Below are positions 1 through 12,079 of a DNA stretch of 64,000 nt, piece after piece. Within the stretch, counting starts at the first letter, position 1, and the number at the start of each line of letters is the position of its first letter. The notes beneath the pieces were generated by a model. It saw only the letters and a list, made by a program, of their open reading frames with translations. It did no database searches and was not told the origin of the DNA. The position numbers were made by a program, and so were the translations under genes. Origin of the DNA: Candidatus Omnitrophota bacterium (lineage in GTDB: Bacteria; Omnitrophota; Gorgyraeia; Gygaellales; Profunditerraquicolaceae); contig JAZDMX010000003.1 of assembly GCA_043800555.1 (NCBI GenBank), positions 33,947-97,946 on the forward strand, written 5' to 3'.

Positions 1-872
1 CCAAACTAGCTTTAGCCGACAGCCGGCTGGAAATAAGCGAAGCTAATTCTTGCGACACAGGCATTGCCATAGGCACAACTTTTGGAAGCCTCTCCAGCAT
101 TTGCGACTTTGATAAAGAAGCGCTCATCGAAGGCGTCCGTTTCGTAAACCCCGCCTTTTTCCCTAATACCGTAATTAACTCTCCCGCAAGCCAAGTTTCC
201 ATAAAATTCAATATCAAAGGTTTTAATATTACTATATCCACCGGTTTTTCAGCAGGTTTAGACGCTATAAATTACGCCTTAAACGCTTTAAGGAACAATC
301 GGGCAAAAATAGCGTTAACCGGCGGAGTGGAAGAATTTTGTATCCAGTCATTTCTAGGTTTTTATAAGGCCGGCTGCCTTACTGATTGCCGGGGAATAGT
401 TTTAGGCGAAGGCTCCGGCATAATCGTGCTGGAAGAATTGGATTTGGCTCTTAAGCGTAAGGCCAGAATTTACGCTGAAGTCCTGGGTTTTGGCACTGCT
501 GTGCAGGATCTAAGGAAATCGATGCGGTTAAGCTTGGAAGAAGCAGGGCTTAAGCCGGAAGAAATCGATTATATAAACGCCGCGGCGAATTCAGCCGAAG
601 AGTTTGGCCTGGAAGAAGCAGGCGCAATCGCAGAGTTGTTTGGAAAAAGGGGGACGCCTGTAAGTTCTATCAAGCCGCTGGTTGGCGAGTCTTATAGCGC
701 TTCAGGCAGCCTGCAAGTTGCCGCGGCAATCAGCGCGATAGATAACCAGATGCTTCCCGGCAAGGCGCTTAATGATTCTCAAGCCCCCAAGATCGAGAAT
801 GTCCTGGTCAATGCCGCAGGCAAAACCGGTTCTAATTCCAGCTTGATAATTTCCAAATTTAAGGGATACTAA
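1..872 (+). CDS. beta-ketoacyl-ACP synthase-like protein, 5'-partial at window edge, predicted NON-catalytic (CLF/KS-beta-like): thiolase fold but Cys-His-His triad absent
   Basis: Reading frame from position 3 translates to a KAS fold. It aligns to FabF across NSPASQVSIKFNIKGFNITISTGFSAGLDAINYALNALRNNRAKIALTGGVEE. The active-site motif ATACTSG is replaced by STGFSAG (Cys to Phe). The NAHGT His motif is replaced by NAAANSA, and the GHxxGAAG His motif by GESYSASG. Stop TAA at 870-872. Confidence 0.75.
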   Translation, partial: KLALADSRLEISEANSCDTGIAIGTTFGSLSSICDFDKEALIEGVRFVNPAFFPNTVINSPASQVSIKFNIKGFNITISTGFSAGLDAINYALNALRNNRAKIALTGGVEEFCIQSFLGFYKAGCLTDCRGIVLGEGSGIIVLEELDLALKRKARIYAEVLGFGTAVQDLRKSMRLSLEEAGLKPEEIDYINAAANSAEEFGLEEAGAIAELFGKRGTPVSSIKPLVGESYSASGSLQVAAAISAIDNQMLPGKALNDSQAPKIENVLVNAAGKTGSNSSLIISKFKGY

Positions 873-877
873 GATAT

Positions 878-1621
878 ATGTTATTCAAAGATAAGGCAGC
901 TATAGTTACGGGCGGCTCAAGAGGCATAGGCAAGGCCTTAGTTTTAATGCTGGCGCAAGAAGGCGCGGATGTTGCTTTTACTTACGTTAAAAGCGTAGAA
1001 GATGCCGAAAAACTATGTTCTGAAATAATAAAGTTAGGCAGGAAGCCGTTTGCCCTGCAAATGGATGTGGCTGACTTTGACAAAGCCAGAGAATTGATAG
1101 AGAGAGTCAAAGAGAATTTCGGCAGGTTGGATGTATTGGTAAATAACGCCGGCATAATCCGGGATAAGGCCTTGATGATGATGTCCAAGGAGGACTGGTT
1201 GCAGGTCATCGATACCAACCTTAACGGGACCTTTAACGTTACCCGGAACGCCATTGTAACTTTCTTAAAACAAAAAAGCGGTTCCATCGTAAATATTACT
1301 TCGGTCAGCGGCGTTGCCGGCATGAGCCGGCAGACTAATTACGCCGCTTCCAAGGCCGGGATCATCGGTTTCACCAAATCCTTGGCCAAGGAAGTTGCGC
1401 CTTATAACATCAGGGTGAATGCGGTTGCCCCCGGTTTTATTGAAACCGATATGATTTCCGGTTTAAAAGATGAATATAAGGAAGAACTAAAGAAGAAGAC
1501 CCCATTGTCCAGGTTAGGAAGGGTTGAAGATGTTTCGGCAGCAGTGAGATTTTTGTTAAGCGAAGGAGCAAGTTTTATCACCGGTCAGACCATTATCGTT
1601 GATGGCGGTTTATTCATTTAA
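878..1621 (+). CDS. 3-oxoacyl-ACP reductase paralog (SDR family, FabG-like)
   Basis: 247 aa. TGGSRGIGKA Rossmann motif, NNAG, and YAASKAG catalytic Tyr/Lys motif. It is a second copy in addition to the housekeeping fabG at 11241. Confidence 0.85.
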   Translation: MLFKDKAAIVTGGSRGIGKALVLMLAQEGADVAFTYVKSVEDAEKLCSEIIKLGRKPFALQMDVADFDKARELIERVKENFGRLDVLVNNAGIIRDKALMMMSKEDWLQVIDTNLNGTFNVTRNAIVTFLKQKSGSIVNITSVSGVAGMSRQTNYAASKAGIIGFTKSLAKEVAPYNIRVNAVAPGFIETDMISGLKDEYKEELKKKTPLSRLGRVEDVSAAVRFLLSEGASFITGQTIIVDGGLFI

Positions 1622-1642
1622 TCTCACGGAAAGGGGGGTAAA

Positions 1643-1891
1643 ATGCTGGATTTGGAGGACGAAATAAGGAGCATGATCGCGGAGATTATTGAGAAAGACC
1701 CCGGCGAAGTTACTCTGGATGCCAAATTCTTCGAGGAATTGGAAATGGATTCGATGATGGCGCTTGAGATTATGGCCGGGATGGAGAAAAAATACAAAAT
1801 TACCATTCCCGAAGAAAAACTTACCAAGCTGACTACTTTAAGAGAAACTGTTACCGTTGCCAGGGAATATCTGGAAAATAAAAATGCTTAA
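1643..1891 (+). CDS. acyl carrier protein (dedicated ACP of accessory cluster)
   Basis: 82 aa, strong SD (AAGGGGGG) 8 nt upstream. LEMDSMMALE phosphopantetheine-attachment Ser motif. Distinct from housekeeping acpP at 12080. Confidence 0.85.
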   Translation: MLDLEDEIRSMIAEIIEKDPGEVTLDAKFFEELEMDSMMALEIMAGMEKKYKITIPEEKLTKLTTLRETVTVAREYLENKNA

Positions 1892-2321
1892 TATCGAAGA
1901 GATTCAAAATATCCTGCCTCAGAAATTCCCTTTTTTAATGATCGACCGGGTTTTGGAGCTGGAACCCGGCAGGAAGATCATCGCGTTAAAGAACATATCT
2001 ATTAATGAAAGTTTTTTTGGCGGGCATTTCCCGGGTATGCCGGTTATGCCGGGAGTTTTGATAATCGAAGCTATGGCCCAGGCTTCGATTATAATGCTCT
2101 ATTCGCCTAAAGATGCTCCCGCGGCCGATAAAACCGCTTATTACCTGGCTTCGGTAAAAGTGAGGTTCTTGCATCCTTTGACCGCGGGCGATCAATTGAA
2201 AATCGAAGTTGAGCCGATTAAAATAATTTCAGGAGCAGGTTTGGTCAAAGCCAGAGCAACTGTGGCTGGTAAAGAAGTTGCCAGCGCAGAATTAAGCTTT
2301 AGCGTTGCTAAGGCCCCGTAA
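1884..2321 (+). CDS. 3-hydroxyacyl-ACP dehydratase, FabZ-like hotdog fold
   Basis: Start ATG overlaps the ACP stop (ATGCTTAA). MLNIEEIQNILPQKFPFLMIDRVLE...FFGGHFPGMPVMPGVLIIEAMAQ matches the FabZ N-terminus and catalytic His region. Confidence 0.85.
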   Translation: MLNIEEIQNILPQKFPFLMIDRVLELEPGRKIIALKNISINESFFGGHFPGMPVMPGVLIIEAMAQASIIMLYSPKDAPAADKTAYYLASVKVRFLHPLTAGDQLKIEVEPIKIISGAGLVKARATVAGKEVASAELSFSVAKAP

Positions 2322-2324
2322 ATA

Positions 2325-3515
2325 ATGGATAAGCGCATTGTCATTACAGGGGTAGGCGTCGTATCTTCCATAGGAATAGGCAAAGAAGATTTTTGGGAAG
2401 CTTTAATCGCCGGGCAATCCGGAATAAGCAAAATTAGTTCTTTTGACACATCCGATTACCCTACCCATTACGGCGGAGAAGTAAAGAACTTTGAGCCTGA
2501 GAACAAAAATATCGGACGGGCCTCGAGCTTAGCCATAGCTTCGGCAAAGCTTGCCGTGAGTGACGCCGGGATCCAGTTAGATAATCTTAGTTCTCAGGAA
2601 ACCGGCGTAGTCATCGGTACCACTATGGGAGAATCTCAAGTTCTTGAAAAATTGAATGACGCTTGGGTAAAACAGGGGATAGAAGCGATAGACCCCAAAT
2701 TAATACCCCAGTATCCCTGCAATGTCCTTTCGTTAAATGTCGGCCAGGAATTAAAACTAGACGGCCCGAATTTTGTCATTCCTAATGCCTGCGCTGCCGG
2801 AAATTATGCCATAGGTTACGCTTATGATCTTATCCGTATGGGTAAGGCTAAAGCAATGTTAGCAGGAGGGTCGGATGCTTTTTCAAGGATAGCCTTCATA
2901 GGCTTTAACCGGCTTCTTGCCGTTGCTTTCGAGAAATGCCGTCCGTTTGATAAAAACAGAAAAGGGATGCTGGTGGCTGAAGGTTCCGGCATGCTCTTTA
3001 TTGAAACGCTGGATGCGGCTTTAAAAAGAGAGGCGAATATTTACGCTGAAATCTTAGGATACGGCTTAAGCTGCGATGCCCATCATATGACCGCGCCTTT
3101 TAGCGAAGGCATCAGCCAAGCCATTGACAAGGCGCTTAAGGCAAGCCAGACCCCCATAGATAAGGTGGATTATTTTAACGCCCATGGGACGGGAACGCCC
3201 GCCAATGACAAGGAAGAATGCCTGGCGATAAAAAAGGTTTTTGGCGATTATTATAAAAAATTACCGGTTAGTTCGATTAAATCCATGCTTGGGCATACCA
3301 TGGGAGCTGCTTCGGCAATCGAAGCGGTCACTTGCGCTTTAGCCGTCAAAAACGACATTATCCCTCCCACGATCAATTTTGAGACTCTGGATGCGGAGTG
3401 CGACATTGATTGCGTGCCGAATGTCGCTCGCAAGGCAAAGGTGGATGTCGCTTTGAACAACGCTTCTGCTTTTGGCGGCAATAACGCGTGTTTGGTGCTT
3501 AGTAAATATCAATAG
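2325..3515 (+). CDS. beta-ketoacyl-ACP synthase, KAS I/II (FabF/FabB) family, catalytically intact
   Basis: 396 aa. Active-site Cys in NACAAGNYAIG, His in NAHGTGTPANDKEE, His in GHTMGAASAIE. Starts 4 nt after the FabZ-like gene. Confidence 0.9.
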   Translation: MDKRIVITGVGVVSSIGIGKEDFWEALIAGQSGISKISSFDTSDYPTHYGGEVKNFEPENKNIGRASSLAIASAKLAVSDAGIQLDNLSSQETGVVIGTTMGESQVLEKLNDAWVKQGIEAIDPKLIPQYPCNVLSLNVGQELKLDGPNFVIPNACAAGNYAIGYAYDLIRMGKAKAMLAGGSDAFSRIAFIGFNRLLAVAFEKCRPFDKNRKGMLVAEGSGMLFIETLDAALKREANIYAEILGYGLSCDAHHMTAPFSEGISQAIDKALKASQTPIDKVDYFNAHGTGTPANDKEECLAIKKVFGDYYKKLPVSSIKSMLGHTMGAASAIEAVTCALAVKNDIIPPTINFETLDAECDIDCVPNVARKAKVDVALNNASAFGGNNACLVLSKYQ

Positions 3516-3518
3516 TGA

Positions 3519-3568
3519 GGGCGGCGCGTCATTTGACTAAACAAGCGCGGGGAAAATGATCGCCGCCC
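3519..3568 (+). terminator. GC-rich hairpin (GGGCGGCG...CGCCGCCC) downstream of KS gene; possible intrinsic terminator with weak U-tract
   Basis: 8-bp perfect GC stem at 3519-3526 / 3561-3568 with a large loop, followed by CTATTTTAT. The U-tract is interrupted, hence low confidence. Confidence 0.35.
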
Positions 3569-3609
3569 CTATTTTATATCCGCAACCTTACAGCCCTGCA
3601 ATTAATCAA

Positions 3610-3637
3610 TTTACCTTTTAATTTTTTATGGTATAAT
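3610..3637 (+). promoter_or_regulatory. putative sigma70 promoter (TTTACC-N16-TGgTATAAT, extended -10) for hydrolase/CrtI-like genes
   Basis: TATAAT at 3632-3637 preceded by TG at 3629-3630, and a -35-like TTTACC at 3610-3615. The first ATG (3647) is only 9 nt downstream, so either the mRNA is leaderless or the true start is the internal Met at 3683. Confidence 0.35.
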
Positions 3638-3646
3638 GCCACTCTT

Positions 3647-4483
3647 ATGGATAATGCAAAACTACGAAAATTTGATTTTCTTATGAAAGGCGATAATGGA
3701 AAAGCGGTTTTGTTGATTCACGGCATTACCGGTACGCCTTCTGAAATGAATTATTTAGGTAAGTCTTTGCACAAGGCTGGTTTTAGCGTGCTTTGCCGGA
3801 CCCTGCCAAAGCATTGCGGCTCCTTGAGGGAGCTAAAGAGCGTTACCTGGCAAGAGATAGCAGATTTTTGCATCAAAGACTTAGAAGGCTTAAAAAAAGA
3901 ATATCGCGATGTTTCTGTGGGCGGGTTATCTATGGGCGCTCTTATGTCGGTCCATCTTGCTTATAAGTACCCTGCTTTAGTCTCTAAGGTTGTTGCTTTG
4001 GCCCCTACCATATTCTATGACGGTTGGGCTGTCCCTAAGCATAAAATATTGATGGATATTTTATGGCACGTGCCTTTCTTGCGCAATAGTATTAATATAA
4101 GAGAGAGCTGGCCTTACGGGTTGAAGAATGAGCTTTTGAGGGCGGGCATAGAAAGGTTTTATCGTAACGCTAAAACAATAGGCAACGACGAAAAGGCGGC
4201 TATTTTCGGCAGTCCGTTTTTTCCAATGAGCTGCCTTTATCAGCACCACCTTTTTACTAAAGTGGTCAAAAAAGAGCTTTCCAGCGTCAAAACTCCTATT
4301 CTTATTATGCATGCCAAGGATGATGATATGACTAGCTCTAAAAACGCGCAATACATGTATAACAGAATCGCCTCTTCGCAGAAAAGCTTAATAATGCTCG
4401 ATGATAGTTATCATATGATAACTATCGATAAGCAAAAACATAAAGTTGCGGAGGAAGTGATTAAGTTCATTAGCGAGCCATAA
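3647..4483 (+). CDS. alpha/beta hydrolase, carboxylesterase Est/YvaK-like
   Basis: AVLLIHGITGTP oxyanion region, GLSMG nucleophile elbow, C-terminal Asp/His region (DDDMTS...SYHMI). An alternative start at 3683 (MKGDNGKAVLLIHG) matches the family N-terminus better. Confidence 0.75.
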   Translation: MDNAKLRKFDFLMKGDNGKAVLLIHGITGTPSEMNYLGKSLHKAGFSVLCRTLPKHCGSLRELKSVTWQEIADFCIKDLEGLKKEYRDVSVGGLSMGALMSVHLAYKYPALVSKVVALAPTIFYDGWAVPKHKILMDILWHVPFLRNSINIRESWPYGLKNELLRAGIERFYRNAKTIGNDEKAAIFGSPFFPMSCLYQHHLFTKVVKKELSSVKTPILIMHAKDDDMTSSKNAQYMYNRIASSQKSLIMLDDSYHMITIDKQKHKVAEEVIKFISEP

Positions 4484-4586
4484 ATGAATAGCGTTATTCG
4501 GAAGCGGCAATTATTTTTCGTCATCTTCTATCCTCTCGGATGAGCTTGAGATTTGACGTAAGCAGCGAAACCTTAATGGCGTTATT

Positions 4587-6095
4587 ATGCGAACAATGGA
4601 ATATGACGCGATTATAATCGGGGCAGGAGCCGCAGGATTGGCTTCTGCCGTTAAATTGTCCTGCCGGGGCAAAAAAATACTCTTAATCGAGAAGCAGCCC
4701 GTAGCCGGAGGCTTTTCCACTACCTTTAACAGGAAGGGTTTTGTTTTTGAGAGCGCTTTGCATTGCGTTGACGGCCTGCAGGAGGCAGGAGAGGTAAGGA
4801 AATTCATTGCAGAATACGGCATCGACAAAAAAATAAATTTTATCGAATTAACTAATTTTAGCCGGATTATCTATCCGGAGCATGATTTTACATCCGGTTT
4901 TGACCACGGGCATCTTATAGATTACCTTAAAGAGAAGTTCCCTCACGAGAAGAGCGGGATCACAAGGCTCTTTTTGGCTTTCGATAAATACTACCGTCAT
5001 TTTGACCGCTTTTACAATTCCAAATTACCTTCGTTTTTGAAGCTTACGTTGACCCCGATTTTGTATCCCGAAATCATCAGGACCGCCTTTATGACCGCGG
5101 ATCAATTTATTAGTAAACATATAAAAGACGTAAAGTTGAAAGGGATTATTACCGATATCTGGAGTTTTATCGGACTGCCGCCATCCAGGGTTTCGGCTTT
5201 TTATTACCTTATTGTCTTCCGGGGGTATTATTATCTGCCTACATTCTATATTAAAGGAAGCTCGAGCGAGCTTTTTAAGGCGATGGTTGAGAAAATAAGG
5301 GAGAATGGTTCCGAGGTGAAATTCAATACCGAAGTTTCCCGTATAGTTACCGAAGGCGGTAAAACCGTTAAAGCCATAGTTACCGATAAAGGAGAAATAT
5401 TTAACACCAGGGTTGTCATAAGTAACGCCAATCCCATAGATACATTTGACAGCCTTATAGATAACGCCGTAATTAAGGGCAAGTATCGTAAGAAGTTATC
5501 GGGTTTGGAGAAATCGATTTCCGCTACCCAGGTATATCTGGGGTTATCGCTGCCGGCGAAGGATTTAGGGATGGACCATTTTATGTTTTCCATAAATACC
5601 AACTATAGCCATGAAGAGGATCTCTCCTGTTGCCTTCGCGGCGATTATGATCATTGTTCTTTATCGTTGGTTGATCACGCCCAGGTGGAACCTGTTCTGG
5701 TGCCTAACGGGAAAGGCAGCCTTTTGATTATGGTCATGGATTCTTATGATAATTGGGATAATCTTTCTCCGGAAGAATATAAGGCTAAGAAGCAAGAGGC
5801 CGCTAAAAAGTTGATTAAACGGGCGGAAGAATATTTGCCGGGGCTAACCAGGGCTATTGAGGTCATGGAAATAGCTACTCCTAAGACTATGGAGCGCTAT
5901 GGTTCTTCGCCTAGAGGCGCTATCTACGGTTTTGCTCAGACTCCGGAGCAGTCAGTTTTTCGCCGGCTTCCCTTGAAAACAGATGTCAGGGGCTTATTCT
6001 TAACCGGCGCCTGGACCCAGCCCGGAGCCGGAATCCATGCTTGTTTTATCTCCGGAATGGATGTTGCAAGTTTAGCTTTGAAATTGTTAAAATGA
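4587..6095 (+). CDS. FAD/NAD(P)-dependent oxidoreductase, phytoene desaturase (CrtI/CrtD) family
   Basis: 502 aa. N-terminal dinucleotide-binding motif YDAIIIGAGAAGLASA...EKQPVAGG. Length and C-terminal GxWTQPGAG motif are typical of the CrtI-like amine-oxidase fold. Confidence 0.8.
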   Translation: MRTMEYDAIIIGAGAAGLASAVKLSCRGKKILLIEKQPVAGGFSTTFNRKGFVFESALHCVDGLQEAGEVRKFIAEYGIDKKINFIELTNFSRIIYPEHDFTSGFDHGHLIDYLKEKFPHEKSGITRLFLAFDKYYRHFDRFYNSKLPSFLKLTLTPILYPEIIRTAFMTADQFISKHIKDVKLKGIITDIWSFIGLPPSRVSAFYYLIVFRGYYYLPTFYIKGSSSELFKAMVEKIRENGSEVKFNTEVSRIVTEGGKTVKAIVTDKGEIFNTRVVISNANPIDTFDSLIDNAVIKGKYRKKLSGLEKSISATQVYLGLSLPAKDLGMDHFMFSINTNYSHEEDLSCCLRGDYDHCSLSLVDHAQVEPVLVPNGKGSLLIMVMDSYDNWDNLSPEEYKAKKQEAAKKLIKRAEEYLPGLTRAIEVMEIATPKTMERYGSSPRGAIYGFAQTPEQSVFRRLPLKTDVRGLFLTGAWTQPGAGIHACFISGMDVASLALKLLK

Positions 6096-6709
6096 GGATT
6101 ACTACCGGTAAGTTCAAGGGCAGGAATATTTGTATGCCCAAGGGCATACGTCCCACCCAAGGCAAAGTCCGAAAAGCTATTTTTGACATTCTCGGAGGCA
6201 TAGAAGGGCTTTCTTTCCTGGAGTTATTCGCCGGTTCAGGGGCAGTGGGCATAGAAGCAGCTTCGCGAGGGGCAAAACAAGTAGTTTTTGTCGAGAATAA
6301 CCCTAATGTCCTCAAAGTGTTATCTTCCAGCATATCCCGATTGCTGCCTACCGTGTATTTGGCTGCCGGCCAACTGGCTCAATACTGCGTATTGCCCCAG
6401 AGCGTTGAAAGCGCGCTAGGACGCTTCAACCGGGAGAAAAAGCGCTTCGATATTATTTTTTTGGACCCTCCTTACCATAATCCCTCGGGTTTCTACCCCG
6501 GAAAAGGGGCCTCCGGGGCCCCGGAATCAAAAAAAACCTTGCAAACTATTGAGGCTTATGATATATTAGCGCCCAATGGTTTAATAGTCGCGCAGCATTT
6601 TGAGAAGGATATCCTCCCCGTTGAGTTGGGAGTTTTAAGCCTGTTTAGGCAGTATAAATACGGCACTACAATTATATCCCTTTATAAAAAACATAGCTTG
6701 GCGGATTAA
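6092..6709 (+). CDS. rsmD: 16S rRNA (guanine966-N2)-methyltransferase RsmD
   Basis: ATGA overlap with the upstream stop. ...KGIRPTQGKVRKAIFDILGG...LELFAGSGAVGIEAASRGA...DPPY motifs. Conserved pairing with coaD downstream. Confidence 0.85.
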   Translation: MRITTGKFKGRNICMPKGIRPTQGKVRKAIFDILGGIEGLSFLELFAGSGAVGIEAASRGAKQVVFVENNPNVLKVLSSSISRLLPTVYLAAGQLAQYCVLPQSVESALGRFNREKKRFDIIFLDPPYHNPSGFYPGKGASGAPESKKTLQTIEAYDILAPNGLIVAQHFEKDILPVELGVLSLFRQYKYGTTIISLYKKHSLAD

Positions 6710-6753
6710 CTCAACCGGCGTATTAAATTCAATAGGCCTGATAAACCAAAAAT

Positions 6754-7242
6754 ATGTGCCAAATAGCCATATACCCCGGTACTTTTGACCCGGTAACTAA
6801 CGGTCATATTGACCTTATCAAGAGGGCGCAAGAGGTATTCCCTGAGATAATCGTAGCTGTTTCCGCTAATCCGCAGAAAGGCCCGCTTTTTGATATTAAA
6901 GAGAGAGTAGGTATGCTTAAAAAGGCTACCGTTAGCTTCAAAGGCGTTGAAGTCGTTGATTTTGACGGTTTGATTGTGGATTATGCGCGTAAACGTAAAG
7001 CCAAGGTCTTGATCAGGGGCTTAAGGATGATTTCGGATTTTGAATATGAATTCCAAATGGCTTTGACAAACAGGAAGCTTTCTCCTGATACCGAGACCAT
7101 TTTCCTTATGCCGCATGAATCATATAGTTACCTTTCTTCAAGGCTTTTGAAGGAAACAGCCGCCTTGGGGGCGGATTTATCGAACTTTGTCCCGAGTTTT
7201 GTCGAAAGGGCGCTTAAAGAAAAATTAGGCGCCAAACAGTGA
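6754..7242 (+). CDS. coaD: phosphopantetheine adenylyltransferase
   Basis: IAIYPGTFDPVTNGHIDLIKRA is the canonical CoaD N-terminus. 162 aa. Confidence 0.95.
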   Translation: MCQIAIYPGTFDPVTNGHIDLIKRAQEVFPEIIVAVSANPQKGPLFDIKERVGMLKKATVSFKGVEVVDFDGLIVDYARKRKAKVLIRGLRMISDFEYEFQMALTNRKLSPDTETIFLMPHESYSYLSSRLLKETAALGADLSNFVPSFVERALKEKLGAKQ

Positions 7243-7324
7243 ACCCGCCGAAAACAGGCGGACGCAGGTAACCGTTAGCATTTTATAACGGGGAGGCGTT
7301 GTTGTATGCGGGGTTTTTAACGGG

Positions 7325-7729
7325 ATGAAAGTCGATACACGAAAAATACCTGATGAAGGGTTAATTATTAGCGAAGAGTTTGGCCCCGAAGAATTAGACC
7401 TGGATACCGAGGTCATCAAGGTTTCCGGGCCGATAAAGGCAAGGGCAACCGTTTCAAAGAGTTATGGCGCTGTTGGCGTGATTTTGGCGCTGGAGGCGCC
7501 GATGGTTATAAACTGCAGCCGTTGCCTGGCAGAAATAAATACCGGTTTTAACAAGCAGGTTGAATTGCATTATGCCGTCGATAAGCTGGAGCCGGTAATT
7601 GAGTTGGATCCGTATATCCGGGAAGAAATAATCTTAAATTATCAAATTAATCCTTTATGCGGCATTAATTGTAAAGGTTTATGCCCTAAATGCGGCAGGA
7701 ATTTAAATGAAGGGGAATGTAACTGTTGA
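7325..7729 (+). CDS. yceD: YceD/DUF177 family protein (large-subunit rRNA accumulation protein), 4-Cys C-terminus
   Basis: Conserved position immediately upstream of rpmF-plsX. CxxC...CxxC motifs (CSRCLAEIN...CKGLCPKCG). Confidence 0.8.
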   Translation: MKVDTRKIPDEGLIISEEFGPEELDLDTEVIKVSGPIKARATVSKSYGAVGVILALEAPMVINCSRCLAEINTGFNKQVELHYAVDKLEPVIELDPYIREEIILNYQINPLCGINCKGLCPKCGRNLNEGECNC

Positions 7730-7771
7730 AAATGGATAACTTTAGTCAACGGTTATCTAGAGGAGGAAAAC

Positions 7772-7972
7772 GTGGCTCTACCTAAGAGAAGGCATTCGAA
7801 AACGCGCGGGCGAAAGCGCCGGACCCATTGGAAAGTAAAGGCGGCGGGCTTAAGCCCTTGCCCGCAATGCAAGCATCCGAAATTAGCGCATAGAGCTTGC
7901 TCTGTTTGCGGTTATTACAAAGGTAAACAGGTCATTGAGATTAAAGTAAAGGAAAAGAAGAAAAGAAGCTAA
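7772..7972 (+). CDS. rpmF: 50S ribosomal protein L32
   Basis: MALPKRRHSKTRGRKRRTHWK and a CPQCK...CSVCGYY zinc ribbon. SD GGAGGA upstream. Confidence 0.95.
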   Translation: MALPKRRHSKTRGRKRRTHWKVKAAGLSPCPQCKHPKLAHRACSVCGYYKGKQVIEIKVKEKKKRS

Positions 7973-8118
7973 AATCGAAGCGGAAAGCCGGAGTCCCGGT
8001 TGCAAATTGCCGAGATATCGTTTACCCAAAACAGCAATGCTTTGCGAACTTGAATATTGCTACGTTTGTCTGCTCGGCAGGCGGGGGTTTCGATATCCGG
8101 ATTTAAGAAGAGGGAAAT

Positions 8119-9108
8119 ATGAAGATAGTGGTAGATGCTATGGGAGGGGATTATGCGCCCGGAGTGGTTATTGATGGCACATTAGCGGCGGTTAAAGAAT
8201 ATGGCGCTGAAGTGACCTTGGTGGGGGATGAAGCTAAGATAAGCCCCTTGCTTAAGAAGTCAGGATATTCCGGCAGTAATGTTTCCATAGTGCACGCGCC
8301 GGAAGCAATCGAAATGTGCGAGCATGCCGCTTTAAGCGTGCGCAGAAAAAGAAATTCTTCTATTGTCATAGGGATAAATTTAGTCAAAACAGGGGCGGCC
8401 GGAGCTTTTTTTAGCGCCGGCAATACCGGGGCGGTGGTATGCGCTGCCACCTTGGGCCTGGGCCTTATCCCCGGGGTTGAAAGGCCCGGGATTGCCATCG
8501 TCACTCCTACCTTAAAAGGCATATCTTTAATCATCGATGTCGGGGCCAATATTGACCCCAAGCCTACCCAGCTTTTACAATACGCGATTATGGCGGATGT
8601 TTACAGCCGGACTATTTTGAATAAAACCAATCCTTCCATAGGGCTGTTGAATATAGGCGAAGAAGAAGCCAAGGGCACTGAATTTGTCCGCCAGACACAC
8701 GAGCTTTTGCAAAAGAGCAACCTTAATTTTGTGGGCAATGTCGAGGGCAAGGATCTTTTCTCGGGCAGGTGCGATATTATTGTTTGCGACGGATTTGTGG
8801 GTAACGTCGCTTTAAAAGTATCCGAAAGCGCCGCAGAAGCGATGCAGGTATTTTTAAAAAGGCATCTTTTAAGCAATCTTTTGGGTAAGATCGGGCTGCT
8901 TTTCTTGTTGCCAAGTTTAAAGCGTTTTAAGAAGGAGCTTGATTATACCGAATATGGCGGTGCCCCCCTGTTGGGAGTTAACGGCGTAACTATTATCGGC
9001 CACGGCCGTTCCAATGTCAAAGCTATTAAAAATGCCATAAGGGTAGCTAAGGAAGAAATAGAGCGTAAGTTCAACGAGAAAATCGTAGAGGCGATTAGCA
9101 AGAGATAA
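8119..9108 (+). CDS. plsX: phosphate acyltransferase PlsX
   Basis: MKIVVDAMGGDYAPGVVIDG N-terminus. 329 aa. Operon context rpmF-plsX-fabH. Confidence 0.95.
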   Translation: MKIVVDAMGGDYAPGVVIDGTLAAVKEYGAEVTLVGDEAKISPLLKKSGYSGSNVSIVHAPEAIEMCEHAALSVRRKRNSSIVIGINLVKTGAAGAFFSAGNTGAVVCAATLGLGLIPGVERPGIAIVTPTLKGISLIIDVGANIDPKPTQLLQYAIMADVYSRTILNKTNPSIGLLNIGEEEAKGTEFVRQTHELLQKSNLNFVGNVEGKDLFSGRCDIIVCDGFVGNVALKVSESAAEAMQVFLKRHLLSNLLGKIGLLFLLPSLKRFKKELDYTEYGGAPLLGVNGVTIIGHGRSNVKAIKNAIRVAKEEIERKFNEKIVEAISKR

Positions 9109-9277
9109 GTTGCCTGTTCCCTGATTCTTCAAAGTAGCCTGGCAGTTGTTGAAGAGGGCGGATGAATACGTTAGCAGGCGGCGGTTAGGGAAATCGTATA
9201 TACTGTAATTAACCGGGCATGATTTTAATAAGGTTTGAGGATATAAATATAATAATGGATAAGAAAGAAGGCAAGGG

Positions 9278-10255
9278 GTGAAAAAGGTAGGCATAATAGG
9301 CGTCGGCGAGTATCTGCCCGGAAAAGTTTTAGTTAACTCGGATTTAGAGAAAATGGTTGATACTTCTGATGAGTGGATTACTACGCGCACAGGCATAAAA
9401 GAACGAAGGCTTGCTTCTAGCGGAGAAGCCACTTCTGATTTAGCCATAAACGCCGCAAAAGAGGCCCTGGAAGATGCGCGTTTGGCGCCGCAAGATTTGG
9501 ATTTAATTATTGTTGCCACAATTACTCCCGATATGCCTTTTCCTTCAGTTGCTTCAATCTTGCAAAACACGCTCTCTGCGAGAAACGCGGCTTGTTTTGA
9601 CGTTTCTGCCGCTTGCGCGGGGTTTGTTTATGGCTTGTCAATCGCCAGCCAATTTATTGCCTGCGGAACATATAAGAACGCCTTGGTTATAGGCGCTGAG
9701 AAACTTTCCTCTGTCACTGATTGGAAAGACAGGAATACTTGCGTCTTATTCGGAGACGGGGCCGGAGCTTGCGTATTAGGCGAAGTGAAATCAGGCGGCA
9801 TAGTTTCTACATATCTTGGTTGTGACGGCTCGAATTTAGGCTTATTAAATCTTCCCGCCGGCGGCTCTAGAATTCCCGCTTCGCATGAAACGGTTGAGGC
9901 GCGCATGCATTATATCAAAATGCAAGGCAACGAATTATTCAAGATTGCCGTTAAAACTATGACCGAAGCAGCCGAAAGAGTCTTAAAACAGGCAGGCCTG
10001 AATTTTTCCGATGTAGACTTGATTATTCCTCACCAGGCGAATTCGCGGATTATTATGGCGGTTGCTAAGCGGCTTGGTTTGTCCGAAGACAAAATCTTCC
10101 TTAACATAGAGAAATATGGGAATATGTCCAGCGCTTCTACGGCCACGGCATTAGTTGAGGCGGCAAAAGAAGGCAGGATTAAGAAGGGGGATGTTGTCCT
10201 TTTGGATGCTTTCGGCGCGGGGCTGGTTTGGGGAGCTTCGGTCATCATATGGTAG
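9278..10255 (+). CDS. fabH: 3-oxoacyl-ACP synthase III
   Basis: GTG start. GIIGVGEYLPGKVLVNSDLEKMVDTSDEWITTRTGIKERR, active Cys in ACAGFVYGL, and the His/Asn region HQANSRII...GNMSSAS. Confidence 0.95.
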   Translation: MKKVGIIGVGEYLPGKVLVNSDLEKMVDTSDEWITTRTGIKERRLASSGEATSDLAINAAKEALEDARLAPQDLDLIIVATITPDMPFPSVASILQNTLSARNAACFDVSAACAGFVYGLSIASQFIACGTYKNALVIGAEKLSSVTDWKDRNTCVLFGDGAGACVLGEVKSGGIVSTYLGCDGSNLGLLNLPAGGSRIPASHETVEARMHYIKMQGNELFKIAVKTMTEAAERVLKQAGLNFSDVDLIIPHQANSRIIMAVAKRLGLSEDKIFLNIEKYGNMSSASTATALVEAAKEGRIKKGDVVLLDAFGAGLVWGASVIIW

Positions 10256-10302
10256 TTACGCATTGCCATTAAGGCGCTAACCCATAGCAAGATAATAGTG
10301 GG

Positions 10303-11216
10303 TTGCTAGATATGGAAGAAAAATTTGGATTTCTTTTTGCCGGGCAAGGCAGTCAATACGTGGGGATGGGTAAGGATTTATACGGGAATTTTCCCGAGTC
10401 CCGTTTGATATTTGACAGGGCGCAGGCATTATTGGATTTTGACCTCAAACAAATCTGTTTTGAGGGCCCGGAGGACCAATTAAAGGTAACCAAGATATCC
10501 CAGCCTGCGATTATCACTGTAAGTATTGCCGCTTTTGAGGCTTTTAAGGCTAAAAATAGGGTTACTCCCGGATTTATGGCGGGTTTAAGCCTGGGTGAAT
10601 ATAGCGCTTTAATCGCCTCTGGGAGCCTTACTTTTGAGGACGGCATCCGGTTAATTAAAAGAAGAGGCGAGTTGATGAATGCGGCAGCCGGGAAATACCC
10701 CGGAAAATGGCCGCTGTTTTGGATTTAGACGCTGTCAGGGTTAAAGAGATTTGCGCGGCAAGCGGCGCGGAAATAGCTAATTTAAATTCTCCCGGACAGG
10801 TTGTTATTTCCGGGAAAGCCGAGGCGATAGATAAAGCTGTTGTTTTATGCAACGAAGCCGGCGCAAAACGGGTGATCCCTCTGGAGGTAAGCGGAGCGTT
10901 CCACTCTTCTTTGATGTCAGAGGCTTCCGCCGGGTTAAAAGAAGAGCTGGATAAGATAGGTATTAGTGAGCCTATTGTTTCGGTAGTAAGCAATTATACA
11001 GCCTTACCTCAGGATAAAACCGCTCAGATCAGGGAGAATTTGGTGCGGCAGGTGTGTTCTCCGGTAAGATGGGAAGATTCAATGCGTTTTATGCTTTCGA
11101 AGGGGATTACGCAGTTTTACGAATTTGGCCCGGGAAAGGTGTTAAAAGGCCTTATGCGGCGCATTGATAGTAATGCGCGAGTAGTGAATATAGAGAGAAA
11201 AATTGACCTAGGGTAG
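10303..11216 (+). CDS. fabD: malonyl CoA-ACP transacylase FabD, interrupted by an apparent -1 frameshift in an A4 run at 10704-10707 (two ORFs 10303-10728 and 10707-11216)
   Basis: N-terminal ORF has FLFAGQGSQYVGMG and the GLSLGEYSAL active-site Ser. The C-terminal ORF continues MAAVLDLD...GAFHSS. Restoring one A (GGAAAAATGG) gives the expected ...AAAGKYPGKMAAVLDLD junction. Essential gene, so a homopolymer assembly error is likely. Confidence 0.85.
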
Positions 11217-11240
11217 TTAGGATGGCAGGGAGGCTTAAGA

Positions 11241-11984: not shown

Positions 11985-12079
11985 AAAAGATCCCTTGTGT
12001 CCATGTTATTACCATGGGGTTCGGGATTAATTCGTCCGTTGCTGAATAGATGGCGGGCTCATTTAAGGAGGAAAAAAGA

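What the first reader, a model, noticed from the sequence alone, without database searches (positions are those of the whole stretch)
1..6095. Accessory ACP-dependent FAS/PKS-like module with a triad-less KS (CLF-like) partner and a CrtI-family desaturase
This module is separate from the housekeeping plsX-fabHDG-acpP-fabF operon at 8.1-13.7 kb. It encodes, in order, a KS-like protein in which all three catalytic residues are replaced (Cys to Phe, His to Ala, His to Glu), a FabG paralog, its own ACP, a FabZ-like dehydratase and a fully catalytic KS. An Est-like alpha/beta hydrolase (possible thioesterase/release step) and a CrtI/phytoene-desaturase-family FAD oxidoreductase follow on their own promoter. 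A catalytic KS plus a non-catalytic KS is the KS-alpha/KS-beta (chain-length factor) logic of type II PKS. It is also found in aryl-polyene and other specialised-lipid clusters. Fab-like genes combined with CrtI-like oxidoreductases have been proposed for unusual hydrocarbon or lipid tails. The module is truncated at the window edge, so more genes probably lie upstream.
Basis: partly seen in the sequence, partly recalled or inferred. Interest (0 to 1): 0.6.

Follow-up and report, generated by a model that had tools for sequence, protein, structure and literature searches.

The report
Ladderane-cluster-like fatty acid module, Omnitrophota
This is a real accessory fatty-acid-building gene set in an uncultured Omnitrophota bacterium; its closest studied relatives are the proteins of the "ladderane" gene cluster of anammox bacteria, yet it lacks the radical-SAM enzyme of that cluster, so features described as anammox-specific are shared with bacteria not known to make ladderanes.

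Summary
Window 1-6095 encodes a triad-less KS (Cys->Phe, His->Ala, His->Glu; only ~82 N-terminal codons are cut off), FabG, ACP, FabZ and a catalytic KS. An esterase-type hydrolase and a CrtI-like flavoprotein follow after a hairpin.

The organism is a Candidatus Omnitrophota MAG. The best solved-structure match of all four FAS-like proteins is an anammox "Cluster I" protein: amxFabFmut, amxFabF2, amxACP or amxFabZ. amxFabF2 and amxFabFmut were recently shown to form a KS/chain-length-factor-like heterodimer. The diagnostic residues are shared: KSβ His->Glu and the FPNTV tunnel motif, and FabZ Ile69 with a hydrophobic residue at 115. In an NJ tree the anammox proteins fall inside the KSα clade (94% bootstrap) and the KSβ clade (100%).

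The differences are an own FabG, an esterase, a divergent flavoprotein and no B12 radical-SAM enzyme. In close relatives recG lies directly upstream, so the module is not truncated.

The most likely function is a self-priming, CLF-controlled, short- or medium-chain acyl-ACP line for an unknown specialised lipid or metabolite. It is probably not ladderane.

antiSMASH "ladderane" hits and KS-CLF catalogue entries in Omnitrophota are already published, so I rate this a new variant of a known kind.

The parts
1..875 (+). KSβ: triad-less beta-ketoacyl synthase homologue of the amxFabFmut clade. The first ~82 codons lie outside the window.
   Evidence: Frame-3 translation. P0001 is 100% identical and 371 aa (NCBI MFH0854982.1). 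The residue states are Cys->Phe, His->Ala, His->Glu, with Lys kept and the FPNTV motif present. The best PDB hit is 9s5h_C at 249 bits, against 163 for the best FabF. The KSβ clade has 100% bootstrap.
878..1621 (+). FabG2: 3-oxoacyl-ACP reductase paralogue (KR).
   Evidence: TIGR01830 scores 307.5 bits, above the cut-off of 297.75. It is 49% identical to the window's housekeeping FabG. It is conserved in the 5-gene core of Omnitrophota loci.
1643..1891 (+). ACP2: dedicated acyl carrier protein (DSM motif).
   Evidence: PP-binding domain. It scores below the acyl_carrier equivalog cut-off (54 against 70.45). The three best PDB hits are all anammox amxACPs at 66, 60 and 58 bits; the next hit scores 44. 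It is 33% identical to AcpP.
1884..2321 (+). FabZ2: 3-hydroxyacyl-ACP dehydratase with the amxFabZ hallmark residues.
   Evidence: FabA/FabZ HMM matches. The best PDB hits are amxFabZ structures 7qv0_A and 8ayb. It has Ile at the amxFabZ-69 position (AQASII) and Ile at 115, with catalytic His and Glu kept. The start ATG at 1884 overlaps the ACP stop.
2325..3515 (+). KSα: catalytic beta-ketoacyl synthase of the amxFabF2 clade.
   Evidence: Cys-His-His-Lys and the gate Phe are intact. The best PDB hit is 9s5h_B at 514 bits (E 2e-153), against Iga11 at 341 and FabF at 323. It is 59-60% identical to Kuenenia and Brocadia amxFabF2. The KSα clade has 94% bootstrap.
3518..3575 (+). GC-rich hairpin followed by a U-run; a terminator-like element after the 5-gene core.
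   Evidence: RNA fold of -26.4 kcal/mol, z = -2.4 against shuffles; sequence.
3610..3637 (+). Promoter-like hexamer pair TTTACC-16-(TG)TATAAT, ending 9 nt before the hydrolase ATG.
   Evidence: 10 of 12 matches, with TG. This is a consensus match only; the regional count is not above chance.
3647..4483 (+). alpha/beta hydrolase of the Est30 / monoacylglycerol-lipase type, with Ser (GLSMG), Asp and His.
   Evidence: Hydrolase_4 and Abhydrolase domains. The best PDB hits are Geobacillus/Bacillus MGL, Est30 and FphH, and the triad residues align. It lies directly upstream of the window-type flavoprotein in 8 of 8 loci examined.
4587..6095 (+). CrtI/CrtISO-like FAD oxidoreductase (amine-oxidase superfamily); an Omnitrophota-wide family. 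Its stop overlaps the rsmD ATG at 6092.
   Evidence: Amino_oxidase domain. carot_isom scores 180 bits and crtI_fam 175 bits, both below their cut-offs. The best PDB hit is Pantoea CrtI 4dgk, E 1e-23, over the full length; the best Foldseek hits are 4rep and 4dgk, but the model is poor. It is 28-32% identical to the anammox PDH. There are 120 or more Omnitrophota relatives at 52% identity or higher.

Best explanation
This is a dedicated type II FAS-like assembly line of the same kind as the core of anammox 'Cluster I'. The steps below are inferred from homologues, except where marked as shown in the sequence.

1. Heterodimer. KSα (2325-3515) and the inactive KSβ (<1-875) form a KS/chain-length-factor-like heterodimer. 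The single active site is on KSα. Residues of KSβ (the FPNTV motif) line and limit the acyl tunnel.
2. Priming and elongation. The pair can prime itself by decarboxylating malonyl-ACP2, so it does not need FabH. It then elongates chains held on the module's own ACP (1643-1891).
3. Reduction and dehydration. FabG2 reduces the 3-keto group. FabZ2, whose tunnel is narrowed by Ile69, dehydrates.
4. Missing activities. No acyltransferase or enoyl reductase is encoded in the module (shown). Malonyl loading must therefore come from the housekeeping FabD. The enoyl bond is either reduced in trans or left in place.
5. Chain length. The shared tunnel residues suggest a short or medium chain, roughly C6-C10.
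6. Transcription. The five genes are translationally coupled and end at a terminator-like hairpin (shown).
7. Tailoring. The esterase-type hydrolase and the CrtI-like flavoprotein that follow are a fixed pair that usually sits next to the module in Omnitrophota. They most likely release, re-esterify or redox-tailor (desaturate, isomerise or saturate) the product.
8. Product. The module lacks the B12 radical-SAM enzyme of the anammox cluster (shown), so the end product is probably an unknown specialised lipid or small acyl metabolite, not a ladderane.
For: Homology to the characterised anammox proteins:
- The best solved-structure match of each of the four FAS-like proteins is an anammox Cluster I protein, by wide margins for KSα (514 against 341 bits) and KSβ (249 against 163 bits).
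- amxFabF2 and amxFabFmut co-purify, are active only together, decarboxylate malonyl-ACP and make acetoacetyl-ACP. They cross-link faster with C8 than with C16 probes, and Phe135 and Val139 of amxFabFmut affect this preference (bioRxiv 10.64898/2026.05.19.726425).
- amxFabZ converts substrates up to C8 efficiently, and its tunnel carries Ile69 (PMC10139942).

Shared diagnostic residues:
- KSβ has His2->Glu in all 35 KSβ sequences but one, and the FPNTV motif.
- FabZ has Ile69 and a hydrophobic residue at 115.
- KSα has Met337 and Phe394.

Phylogeny: the KSβ clade has 100% bootstrap and the KSα clade 94%. Both include the anammox proteins.

Operon structure: junctions of 2, -8 and 3 nt, followed by the hairpin.

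Conservation of the core: the five-gene core recurs in about 25 non-anammox loci, including Velamenicoccus archaeovorus.

The hydrolase/flavoprotein pair:
- It is adjacent to the module in 6 of 8 loci and within 6 kb in 7 of 8, in different flanking contexts.

Absence of the radical-SAM enzyme: there is no B12-rSAM in the window or beside any Omnitrophota module.
Against: - Nothing here is biochemical for the Omnitrophota proteins. Heterodimer formation, chain length and saturation state are all inferred from homologues that are 44-60% identical.
- Even for the anammox heterodimer, elongation beyond acetoacetyl-ACP was not seen in vitro. Its modelled tunnel could hold C12-C16.
- The hydrolase/flavoprotein pair appears to be a separate transcription unit.
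- The pair is missing next to the module in the closest GTDB relative, L029.
- The pair occurs without a nearby module in L164.
- The flavoprotein is no closer to the anammox PDH (about 30% identity) than expected for distant paralogues.
- The hydrolase resembles lipid esterases rather than acyl-ACP thioesterases.
- Whether the genome has another FabZ, or a FabI, is unknown.
Confidence: 0.6

Rival explanations
1. The five genes form a highly reducing type II PKS-like polyene line (KS/CLF + KR + DH + ACP, no ER), as in ishigamide or aryl-polyene pathways. It would make a conjugated polyenoyl-ACP. This would then be tailored, or coupled to an amine by the FemAB-like/GNAT enzyme seen in relatives.
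For: - The gene content equals the minimal HR type II PKS set, and no ER is encoded.
- The second-best PDB hit of KSα is the ishigamide KS Iga11, at 341 bits against 323 for the best FabF.
- amxFabF2's closest structural neighbour is also Iga11.
- A FemAB-like acyltransferase lies between KSα and the hydrolase in 5 of 8 related loci. Class-III aminotransferase and arginase-like genes recur nearby.
Against: - KSβ is not related to PKS CLFs. It scores 86 bits against Iga12 and 100 against ActCLF, but 163 against FabF.
- The KR passes the FabG equivalog cut-off but fails the flexirubin FlxB cut-off.
- The DH is a FabZ with the amxFabZ marks, not an ApeI/ApeP pair.
- The window has no AMP-ligase, LPLAT, glycosyltransferase, LolA/MMPL export genes or FemAB-like gene.
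- A housekeeping enoyl reductase acting in trans cannot be excluded.
Confidence: 0.2
2. The module is part of, or a back-up for, primary fatty acid or lipid A acyl-chain synthesis. For example, it might supply the cell's FabZ activity or 3-hydroxyacyl chains. It would then not be a specialised pathway.
For: - It sits between recG and rsmD-coaD-yceD-rpmF-plsX-fabH..., only 2 kb from the housekeeping operon.
- The housekeeping operon and the rest of the 64 kb window contain no fabZ or fabI.
- FabG2 and FabZ2 pass the NCBIfam FabG and FabZ cut-offs.
- In L050 and L056 a module-type FabZ and KSα lie inside the plsX-fabH-fabD operon.
- PagL, ArnE/F-like and DegT genes lie near the module in L165, L166 and L081.
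Against: - A complete fabH-fabD-fabG-acpP-fabF set is present as well.
- The module has its own divergent ACP, 33% identical to AcpP and below the ACP equivalog cut-off.
- A catalytically dead KS subunit under clear purifying selection, and the narrowed FabZ tunnel, both argue for a specialised chain.
- In L081 the module lies away from the FAS operon.
- In many Gram-negative bacteria fabZ lies with the lpx genes elsewhere in the genome, so its absence from this window is uninformative (general knowledge).
Confidence: 0.12
3. The module makes ladderane lipids, or the same ladderane precursor, in Omnitrophota.
For: - The KSα, KSβ, ACP and FabZ are homologous to the putative ladderane Cluster I and share its diagnostic residues.
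- antiSMASH labels such Omnitrophota clusters 'ladderane' (PMC9902471).
Against: - The B12 radical-SAM enzyme is the most conserved Cluster I protein in the anammox loci compared here, at 85-88% identity. It is absent from the window and from all Omnitrophota loci examined. No Omnitrophota sequence is named among its 120 best relatives.
- Ladderanes have been reported only from anammox bacteria.
- The role of Cluster I itself in ladderane synthesis is unproven.
Confidence: 0.04
4. The hydrolase and the CrtI-like flavoprotein are functionally unrelated to the KS module. They would be a separate two-gene unit, for example for lipid or isoprenoid turnover, that merely tends to lie nearby.
For: - A terminator-like hairpin and a promoter-like site separate them from KSα.
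- The flavoprotein's stop overlaps the rsmD start.
- L164 has the pair with no module within 9 kb.
- L029 has the module without the pair.
- Other Omnitrophota modules carry different tails: a fatty-acyl reductase, a methyltransferase, a LuxD-like acyltransferase or PDH-like flavoproteins.
Against: - The pair is adjacent to the module in 6 of 8 loci. These span 52-78% flavoprotein identity and different flanks. In L081 the gaps are only 26 and 10 nt.
- 24 contig lengths are shared between the two hit lists.
- A flavoprotein of the same superfamily also follows the KS genes in anammox and in other Omnitrophota and Nitrospira loci.
Confidence: 0.3

Closest known systems
Anammox 'Cluster I' (KustE3603-3608: amxACP, amxFabZ, amxFabF2, amxFabFmut, phytoene-dehydrogenase homologue, B12 radical-SAM), the putative ladderane cluster
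   Same: - The catalytic KS and the triad-less KS belong to the same two clades (94% and 100% bootstrap).
- KSα is 59-60% identical and KSβ about 44%.
- KSβ shares His->Glu and the FPNTV tunnel motif.
- FabZ shares Ile69 and a hydrophobic residue at 115.
- The ACP is closest to amxACP.
- A CrtI-superfamily flavoprotein lies downstream.

   Different: - The gene order differs: KSβ-FabG-ACP-FabZ-KSα here, ACP-FabZ-KSα-KSβ-PDH-rSAM in anammox.
- This module has its own FabG and an esterase.
- The KSβ active-site residue is Phe here and Val or Ile in the anammox loci aligned here (Thr in Scalindua according to the preprint).
- The flavoprotein is only about 30% identical to the PDH.
- There is no B12 radical-SAM.
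- The host is an Omnitrophota bacterium, a phylum from which no ladderanes have been reported.

Highly reducing type II PKS, e.g. ishigamide Iga10-Iga13/Iga16 (PDB 6kxd-6kxf)
   Same: It has a KS/CLF heterodimer plus KR, DH and a discrete ACP, with no ER. Iga11 is the second-best structural-database match of KSα.
   Different: KSβ is not homologous to Iga12 beyond the general KS fold (86 bits). The CLF-like subunit arose independently from a FabF-like ancestor. No polyene product or amide-forming enzyme is encoded in this window.
Aromatic type II PKS KSα/CLF (e.g. actinorhodin, PDB 1tqy)
   Same: It uses the same heterodimer logic: one active and one inactive KS, with decarboxylative self-priming.
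   Different: The CLF active-site Gln is not present (Phe here). Similarity is low, at 116 and 100 bits. There are no cyclases or aromatases, and the chain is fully processed by KR and DH.
Aryl-polyene / flexirubin clusters
   Same: They also combine an accessory KS pair, KR, DH and ACP next to primary metabolism genes in Gram-negative bacteria.
   Different: There is no AMP-ligase, LPLAT, glycosyltransferase, LolA/MMPL export set or ApeI/ApeP dehydratase pair. FlxB scores 257 bits, below its cut-off of 340.
Canonical bacterial FAS II (FabF, FabG, FabZ, AcpP)
   Same: The folds and chemistry are the same. FabG2 and FabZ2 pass the NCBIfam equivalog cut-offs.
   Different: KSα (425 bits against a cut-off of 493.75) and ACP2 (54 against 70.45) fail the FabF and ACP equivalog cut-offs. 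One KS subunit is catalytically dead. A separate complete housekeeping operon lies 2 kb downstream.

Membership tests
Anammox Cluster I-type FAS module (putative ladderane cluster) | Catalytic KS of the amxFabF2 clade | tested here: met
   9s5h_B scores 514 bits (E 2e-153), against 341 for the next hit. It is 59-60% identical. The KSα clade including the anammox proteins has 94% bootstrap.
Anammox Cluster I-type FAS module (putative ladderane cluster) | Triad-less KS of the amxFabFmut clade (Cys lost, His1 lost, His2->Glu, Lys kept, Phe135/Val139 tunnel residues) | tested here: met
   9s5h_C scores 249 bits, against 163 for the next hit. The residue states are F/A/E/K, with the FPNTV motif conserved. 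The clade has 100% bootstrap.
Anammox Cluster I-type FAS module (putative ladderane cluster) | FabZ with Ile at position 69 (Gly in canonical FabZ) and a hydrophobic residue at 115 (Arg/Lys in canonical FabZ) | tested here: met
   The window FabZ2 has Ile and Ile; all 27 anammox amxFabZ have Ile and Val. The second anammox FabZ copy has Thr and Arg. E. coli FabZ (sequence from memory) has Gly and Arg. The definition comes from PMC10139942.
Anammox Cluster I-type FAS module (putative ladderane cluster) | Dedicated ACP of the amxACP type | tested here: met
   The top three PDB hits are amxACPs (7qv0_D, 7auf_A, 9s5i_E) at 58-66 bits; the next hit scores 44. The 3-10 helix reported for amxACP could not be judged from sequence.
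Anammox Cluster I-type FAS module (putative ladderane cluster) | Phytoene-dehydrogenase homologue (kuste3607 type) adjacent | tested here: inconclusive
   A flavoprotein of the same superfamily is present, but it is only 28-32% identical (about 200 bits). The anammox PDH is closer to the tail flavoproteins of other Omnitrophota and Nitrospira loci, at 33-36%. Over the N-terminal 128 aa the window protein is equally distant from kuste3336 and kuste3607.
Anammox Cluster I-type FAS module (putative ladderane cluster) | Cobalamin-dependent radical-SAM enzyme (kuste3608 type) adjacent | tested here: not met
   The only tblastn hit in the window is a MiaB-like rSAM at 62057-63301, 26% identical over 177 aa. 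None lies beside any Omnitrophota module. Every named hit among its 120 best database relatives is a Brocadiales or other Planctomycetota protein, plus one Acidobacteria protein.
Anammox Cluster I-type FAS module (putative ladderane cluster) | KSα/KSβ heterodimer with malonyl-ACP decarboxylase activity; ladderane lipids in the organism | not testable with these tools
   This needs co-expression with pull-down, enzyme assays and lipidomics.
Aromatic type II PKS KS/CLF | CLF belongs to the PKS CLF clade and carries the active-site Gln; cyclase and aromatase genes nearby | tested here: not met
   The active-site residue is Phe. ActCLF scores 100 bits and Iga12 86 bits, both below FabF at 163. There are no cyclase or aromatase domains in the window.
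Aryl-polyene / flexirubin cluster | AMP-ligase starter enzyme, ApeI/ApeP dehydratase pair, LPLAT, glycosyltransferase, LolA/MMPL export genes | tested here: not met
   None is found in 1-6095 or in the flanking genes. The KR scores below the FlxB cut-off (257 against 340).
Highly reducing type II PKS (ishigamide type) | KS/CLF + KR + DH + ACP without ER, producing a polyene | tested here: inconclusive
   The gene content matches, and KSα is slightly nearer to Iga11 than to FabF. KSβ is unrelated to Iga12. The product's saturation state is untestable here.
CrtI phytoene desaturase family (TIGR02734) / carotenoid isomerase (TIGR02730) | Score above the curated family cut-off; carotenoid pathway context | tested here: not met
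   It scores 175 bits against a cut-off of 238, and 180 against 587. No phytoene synthase or other crt genes were seen in the window. The anammox homologues do not complement crtI (PMC4790861). Fold and sequence are nonetheless CrtI-like.
Housekeeping FAS II | FabF and ACP equivalog scores; the only copy in the genome region | tested here: not met
   KSα scores 425, below 493.75; ACP2 scores 54, below 70.45. A separate fabH-fabD-fabG-acpP-fabF operon lies at 9278-13694.

The most novel reading that the evidence does not exclude
The Omnitrophota module and the core of anammox Cluster I descend from one ancestral CLF-controlled FAS line that makes a short or medium acyl-ACP. If so, the traits published as anammox-specific or ladderane-specific are not tied to ladderanes. 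These traits are the amxFabF2/amxFabFmut heterodimer, FabZ Ile69 and amxACP. The truly anammox-restricted step would then be the B12 radical-SAM enzyme, with its partner flavoprotein, acting on a precursor that Omnitrophota, some Nitrospirota and others also make and turn into a different, still unknown lipid or signal.
Probability: 0.4. Interest if true: 0.7.

Novelty: new variant of a known kind. Interest (0 to 1): 0.5.

Why it matters
Ladderane biosynthesis is a long-standing open problem. Its only genetic handle is Cluster I, which recent structural papers describe as found exclusively in ladderane producers.

This window, together with about 25 related loci, shows that four of the six Cluster I proteins have close relatives in Omnitrophota and a few other phyla. 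These relatives carry the diagnostic residues, and the loci lack the B12 radical-SAM enzyme.

This has three consequences:
- It narrows the search for the cyclobutane-forming step.
- It offers simpler homologous systems for working out what the KS/CLF-FabZ-ACP core actually makes.
- It warns that antiSMASH 'ladderane' calls outside Brocadiales do not indicate ladderanes.

It also flags an uncharacterised, phylum-wide lipid or metabolite pathway in Omnitrophota.

Tried and rejected
- Exact-sequence look-ups of the window's KS and of P0001 found nothing on record. Upstream context therefore came from relatives.
- The P0005 contig had no DNA file.
- The metagenome scan with the flavoprotein alignment was wasted. 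The chosen peptide pattern was the generic FAD motif, and only relatives at 30% identity or less came back.
- I tried to test the reported electrostatic asymmetry of the heterodimer interface by linear net charge. It does not reproduce the asymmetry even for the anammox sequences, so it is uninformative.
- The AlphaFold model of the flavoprotein was poor (pLDDT 69, pTM 0.58). Foldseek only repeated the CrtI/CrtN result and showed no fatty-acid isomerase among the 50 listed matches.
- Rfam found no riboswitch or other RNA in 1-14000.
- Only the N-terminal 128 aa of kuste2804, kuste2805 and kuste3336 could be recovered from a supplement. Their relation to the window proteins is therefore only roughly assessed: Cluster I is closer than the kuste2802-2805 cluster.
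- I considered biotin (BioC/BioH-like) and lipoate precursor supply and did not pursue them. No bio or lip genes are nearby, and the BioH match is only generic alpha/beta-fold similarity (29 bits against a cut-off of 207).
- An ornithine-lipid-like reading is noted but left as speculation. It rests on the FemAB-like gene, the aminotransferase and arginase-like neighbours in relatives, and a weak OlsI match. None of those neighbour genes is in this window.

Full report
**1. What is in the sequence**

Window 1-6095 carries seven co-directional genes on the + strand.

| Gene | Coordinates | Basis |
|---|---|---|
| KS-like protein (KSβ) | <1-875 | PF00109/PF02801 |
| FabG | 878-1621 | TIGR01830, 307.5 bits, above cut-off |
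| ACP | 1643-1891 | PP-binding |
| FabZ | 1884-2321 | TIGR01750, 156 bits; the ATG overlaps the ACP stop by 8 nt |
| Catalytic KS (KSα) | 2325-3515 | PF00109/PF02801 |
| alpha/beta hydrolase | 3647-4483 | Hydrolase_4 |
| Amine-oxidase/CrtI-like flavoprotein | 4587-6095 | PF01593 |

The first ORF runs off the window start. A 100% identical, 371-aa database protein from a 304-kb NCBI contig of a Candidatus Omnitrophota MAG shows that only ~82 codons are missing. NCBI accessions MFH0854982 (KSβ) to MFH0854988 (flavoprotein) are consistent with seven consecutive genes.

The catalytic KS keeps Cys-His-His-Lys and the gate Phe.

The housekeeping plsX-fabH-fabD-fabG-acpP-fabF operon lies at 8119-13694. 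The paralogues are only 33-49% identical to their housekeeping counterparts.

**2. Operon structure**

The junctions KSβ/FabG, ACP/FabZ and FabZ/KSα are 2, -8 and 3 nt, so the five genes are tightly coupled.

The KSα stop is followed by a GC-rich hairpin (-26.4 kcal/mol, z = -2.4) and a U-run. A TTTACC-16-TGgTATAAT match ends 9 nt before the hydrolase ATG. This is a consensus match only; the regional count is not above the shuffled expectation.

The flavoprotein stop overlaps the rsmD ATG. The hydrolase and flavoprotein are therefore probably transcribed apart from the five-gene core, together with rsmD-coaD. No Rfam family matches in 1-14000.

**3. Upstream boundary**

In three relatives recG lies directly upstream of KSβ: the 81%-identical P0005 contig, L029 (84-89% identical) and L083.

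In L165, L056 and L073, recG is followed directly by rsmD-coaD (in L165 and L056 also by yceD and plsX). In the window's lineage the module therefore looks inserted between recG and rsmD.

**4. Identity of the proteins**

A search of all PDB sequences gave an unexpected and consistent answer.

| Window protein | Best PDB match | Next-best match |
|---|---|---|
| KSβ | 9s5h chain C, 249 bits | best FabF, 163 bits |
| KSα | 9s5h chain B, 514 bits, E 2e-153 | Iga11 341 bits; FabF 323 bits |
| ACP | 7qv0_D, 7auf_A, 9s5i_E (58-66 bits) | 44 bits |
| FabZ | 7qv0_A, 8ayb (135 bits) | P. aeruginosa FabZ, 122 bits |

I identify these entries with the anammox 'Cluster I' proteins amxFabFmut, amxFabF2, amxACP and amxFabZ. 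The basis is the structures described in the papers and the 95% identity of my typed 9s5h_B sequence to the Cluster I KS of Brocadia loci. The papers are bioRxiv 10.64898/2026.05.19.726425 and PMC10139942. Cluster I (KustE3603-3608) is the candidate ladderane cluster. It encodes an ACP, a FabZ, FabF2, FabFmut, a phytoene-dehydrogenase homologue (PDH) and a B12 radical-SAM enzyme.

The preprint reports the following about amxFabF2 and amxFabFmut:
- They are inactive alone and co-purify.
- Together they decarboxylate malonyl-ACP and form acetoacetyl-ACP.
- They react faster with C8 than with C16 cross-linking probes.
- Phe135 and Val139 of the inactive subunit affect this preference.

The JBC paper shows that amxFabZ prefers substrates up to C8. 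It carries Ile69 in the tunnel (Gly in canonical FabZ) and a hydrophobic residue at 115 (Arg or Lys in canonical FabZ).

**5. Diagnostic residues**

KSβ family. Across 35 KSβ sequences from fetched loci, the Cys is replaced by Phe, Tyr or Leu in non-anammox proteins and by Val or Ile in anammox proteins. His1 is replaced by Asn, Ser, Ala, Gly, Thr, Cys or Tyr. His2 is Glu in all but one (Asp), and Lys is kept. The FPNTV motif that contains Phe135 and Val139 is conserved in most, including the window protein.

FabZ. All module-linked FabZs have Ile (three have Ala) at position 69, and a hydrophobic residue or Thr at 115; the window protein has Ile and Ile. This matches the 27 anammox amxFabZs (Ile, Val). 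It differs from the second anammox FabZ copy (Thr, Arg) and from E. coli FabZ (Gly, Arg; sequence from memory).

KSα. It shares Met337, Phe203 and Phe394 with amxFabF2.

**6. Related loci and phylogeny**

A scan of GTDB species genomes used an alignment of amxFabF2 and the window KS. It returned 29 anammox loci at 87-95% identity to amxFabF2. After a gap, Omnitrophota and a few other MAGs followed at 57% or less. They include Candidatus Velamenicoccus archaeovorus LiM, Thermodesulfovibrionia, Nitrospira and Spirochaetales. Ordinary FabFs came last.

The gene maps show two architectures:
- Anammox: ACP-FabZ-KSα-KSβ-PDH-rSAM.
- Non-anammox: a conserved five-gene core, KSβ-FabG-ACP-FabZ-KSα, sometimes with FabG first.

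An NJ tree with 200 bootstraps gives a KSβ clade at 100% and a KSα clade at 94%. Each contains the anammox proteins. Monophyly of the non-anammox sequences is not supported (4-14%). The position of the anammox branch inside the radiation is unresolved: it groups with the window-type KSα in 50% of replicates.

The window KSα is as similar to Kuenenia amxFabF2 (59%) as to Velamenicoccus KSα (59%).

Partial sequences from a supplement indicate that Cluster I is closer to the window proteins than Kuenenia's kuste2804/2805 pair is.

**7. What differs from Cluster I**

(a) The radical-SAM enzyme. The anammox B12-rSAM is the most conserved Cluster I protein (85-88% identity across genera). It has no counterpart next to any Omnitrophota module or anywhere in the window. 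The only radical-SAM genes in the window are a MiaB-like enzyme (62057-63301) and an AmmeMemoRadiSam-type enzyme (57610-58833).

(b) The module has its own FabG.

(c) The flavoprotein is only 28-32% identical to the anammox PDH. The PDH is slightly closer (33-36%) to the flavoproteins that follow KSα in other Omnitrophota and Nitrospira loci. The window protein scores below the crtI_fam and carotenoid-isomerase cut-offs. Its best PDB and Foldseek matches are CrtI and CrtN, although the model was poor. kuste3607 and kuste3336 did not replace CrtI in a lycopene pathway (PMC4790861).

(d) The hydrolase is an Est30 / monoacylglycerol-lipase-type esterase with an intact Ser-Asp-His triad.

**8. Is the hydrolase/flavoprotein pair part of the system?**

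The flavoprotein belongs to a well-conserved Omnitrophota family, with 120 hits at 52% identity or higher. I examined eight loci that carry it.

| Feature | Loci |
|---|---|
| Hydrolase directly upstream of the flavoprotein | 8 of 8 |
| FemAB-like gene on the opposite strand before the hydrolase | 5 of 8 (not in the window) |
| Five-gene module adjacent | 6 of 8 |
| Module within 6 kb | 7 of 8 |
| No module within 9 kb | 1 of 8 (L164) |

The flanks differ between loci. L081 has an aminotransferase upstream and a GGDEF protein downstream. L083 and the window have recG and rsmD.

In the other direction, L029 has the module without the pair. Velamenicoccus-type loci carry other tails:
- a fatty-acyl reductase (9 loci);
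- PDH-like flavoproteins;
- methyltransferases;
- a LuxD-like acyltransferase;
- a 7TM-GAF histidine kinase (about 15 loci).

The core is therefore constant and the tailoring end is modular. The window's pair is a frequent partner of the core, but not an obligatory one.

**9. Most likely mechanism**

Shown in the sequence:
- the gene content;
- the dead triad in one KS and the intact triad in the other;
- a dedicated ACP;
- the narrowed FabZ tunnel;
- the absence of an AT, an ER and a radical-SAM enzyme.

Inferred from the characterised homologues:
- KSα and KSβ form a CLF-like heterodimer.
- The heterodimer self-primes from malonyl-ACP2 and builds a chain on ACP2.
- FabG2 and FabZ2 process each round.
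- FabD is borrowed from the housekeeping operon.
- Chain length is probably short to medium.
- The esterase and flavoprotein release or tailor the product.

The product is unknown. Ladderane is unlikely without the radical-SAM enzyme. My confidence in the enzymology is about 0.6.

Rivals:
- a polyene-forming, highly reducing type II PKS-like line (0.2);
- a contribution to primary or lipid A fatty acid synthesis (0.12);
- true ladderane synthesis (0.04).

Separately, the esterase/flavoprotein pair may be functionally independent of the core (0.3).

**10. Comparison with what is known, and novelty**

The system works like a KS/CLF line. However, KSβ is not a member of the PKS CLF clade: ActCLF scores 100 bits and Iga12 86 bits, both below FabF, and there is no active-site Gln.

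It is not an aryl-polyene cluster, because the accessory genes are missing and the FlxB score is below cut-off.

It meets four of the six gene-level criteria of anammox Cluster I. It fails the radical-SAM criterion, and the PDH criterion is inconclusive.

Earlier literature already lists antiSMASH 'ladderane' BGCs in Omnitrophota and other phyla, with unknown function (PMC9902471). It also lists KS-CLF-like pairs in Candidatus Omnitrophica (PMC10132072). Rattray et al. noted rare similar clusters in deltaproteobacteria (PMC2649909).

In the library I could search, I found no description of two points:
- the protein-by-protein correspondence with Cluster I, including the 'anammox-specific' residues;
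- the consistent absence of the radical-SAM enzyme.

This qualifies the statement that the cluster is found exclusively in ladderane producers. I therefore rate it a new variant of a known kind, with moderate interest (0.5).

**11. Limits**

- The trees are NJ on about 400 columns.
- Only 21-kb neighbourhoods were seen for relatives.
- The rest of this MAG could not be fetched, so the presence of another FabZ, of FabI, or of a distant Cluster-I-type rSAM in this genome is untested.
- No experiment on any Omnitrophota protein exists to my knowledge.

Noticed in passing
window 10303-11216 (frameshift near 10704-10707): The housekeeping fabD is split into two ORFs (10303-10728 and 10707-11216). 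One A is missing in the run 'ggaaaatgg'; with one more A the protein would read ...GKMAAVLDLD... in frame. The relative L083 has an intact 305-aa FabD. This is either an assembly error or a real frameshift. It matters because the accessory module has no acyltransferase of its own.
   Followed up: partly
L039 11221-14500; also L032, L035, L036, L037, L041, L042, L044, L050, L056: In Velamenicoccus-type Omnitrophota loci the five-gene module is followed by a fatty-acyl reductase (NAD_binding_4, 9 loci) and a 7TM (HisKA_7TM)-GAF histidine kinase (about 15 loci). Some loci also add a methyltransferase, a nitroreductase or a LuxD-like acyltransferase-methyltransferase fusion. The recurrent sensor kinase next to a lipid-building module is unexplained.
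   Followed up: partly
L050 4718-6390; L056 9546-11206: In two genomes a module-type FabZ and a KSα sit inside the plsX-fabH-fabD operon, followed by the reductase and the kinase. In this FabZ the catalytic His is replaced by Ser. No KSβ, FabG2 or ACP2 is visible in these loci.
   Followed up: no
L041 11208-12521; L045 5710-7014: A third, very divergent KS-like ORF (25-27% identical to KSα) directly follows KSα in two loci. It branches outside the KSα, KSβ and FabF clades.
   Followed up: no
window 1-6095 versus L165, L056, L073: recG-rsmD-coaD (continuing into yceD and plsX where visible) is a conserved block in other Omnitrophota. In the window, the P0005 contig and L083 the module with its pair lies between recG and rsmD; in L029 recG also lies directly upstream of the module. 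This suggests an insertion into that block.
   Followed up: partly
L165 1268-2853 and 10500-13399; L166 3324-6583 and 10700-12804; L081 2097-5172: Recurrent neighbours of the window-type module in relatives are an MtnX-like HAD phosphatase, a class-III aminotransferase, an arginase-like protein, a FemAB-like/GNAT protein, small ArnE/F-like EamA proteins, a DegT-type aminotransferase and PagL. Together they hint at an envelope aminolipid or lipid A modification context. None of these genes is in this window.
   Followed up: partly
window 57610-60470: A radical-SAM gene is followed by a Memo/AMMECR1 fusion, i.e. an AmmeMemoRadiSam-type system. It is unrelated to the module.
   Followed up: no
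window 13732-35000: A long co-directional run of amino-acid biosynthesis genes follows fabF: a leuC-like aconitase-family gene, an isopropylmalate-dehydrogenase-type gene, asd, truA, argC/J/B/D/F/G/H, lysA, dapF, dapA, dapB and an aminotransferase, with panC just beyond at 35173-36018. The strong strand bias and positive GC skew across the whole window fit a leading-strand location.
   Followed up: no
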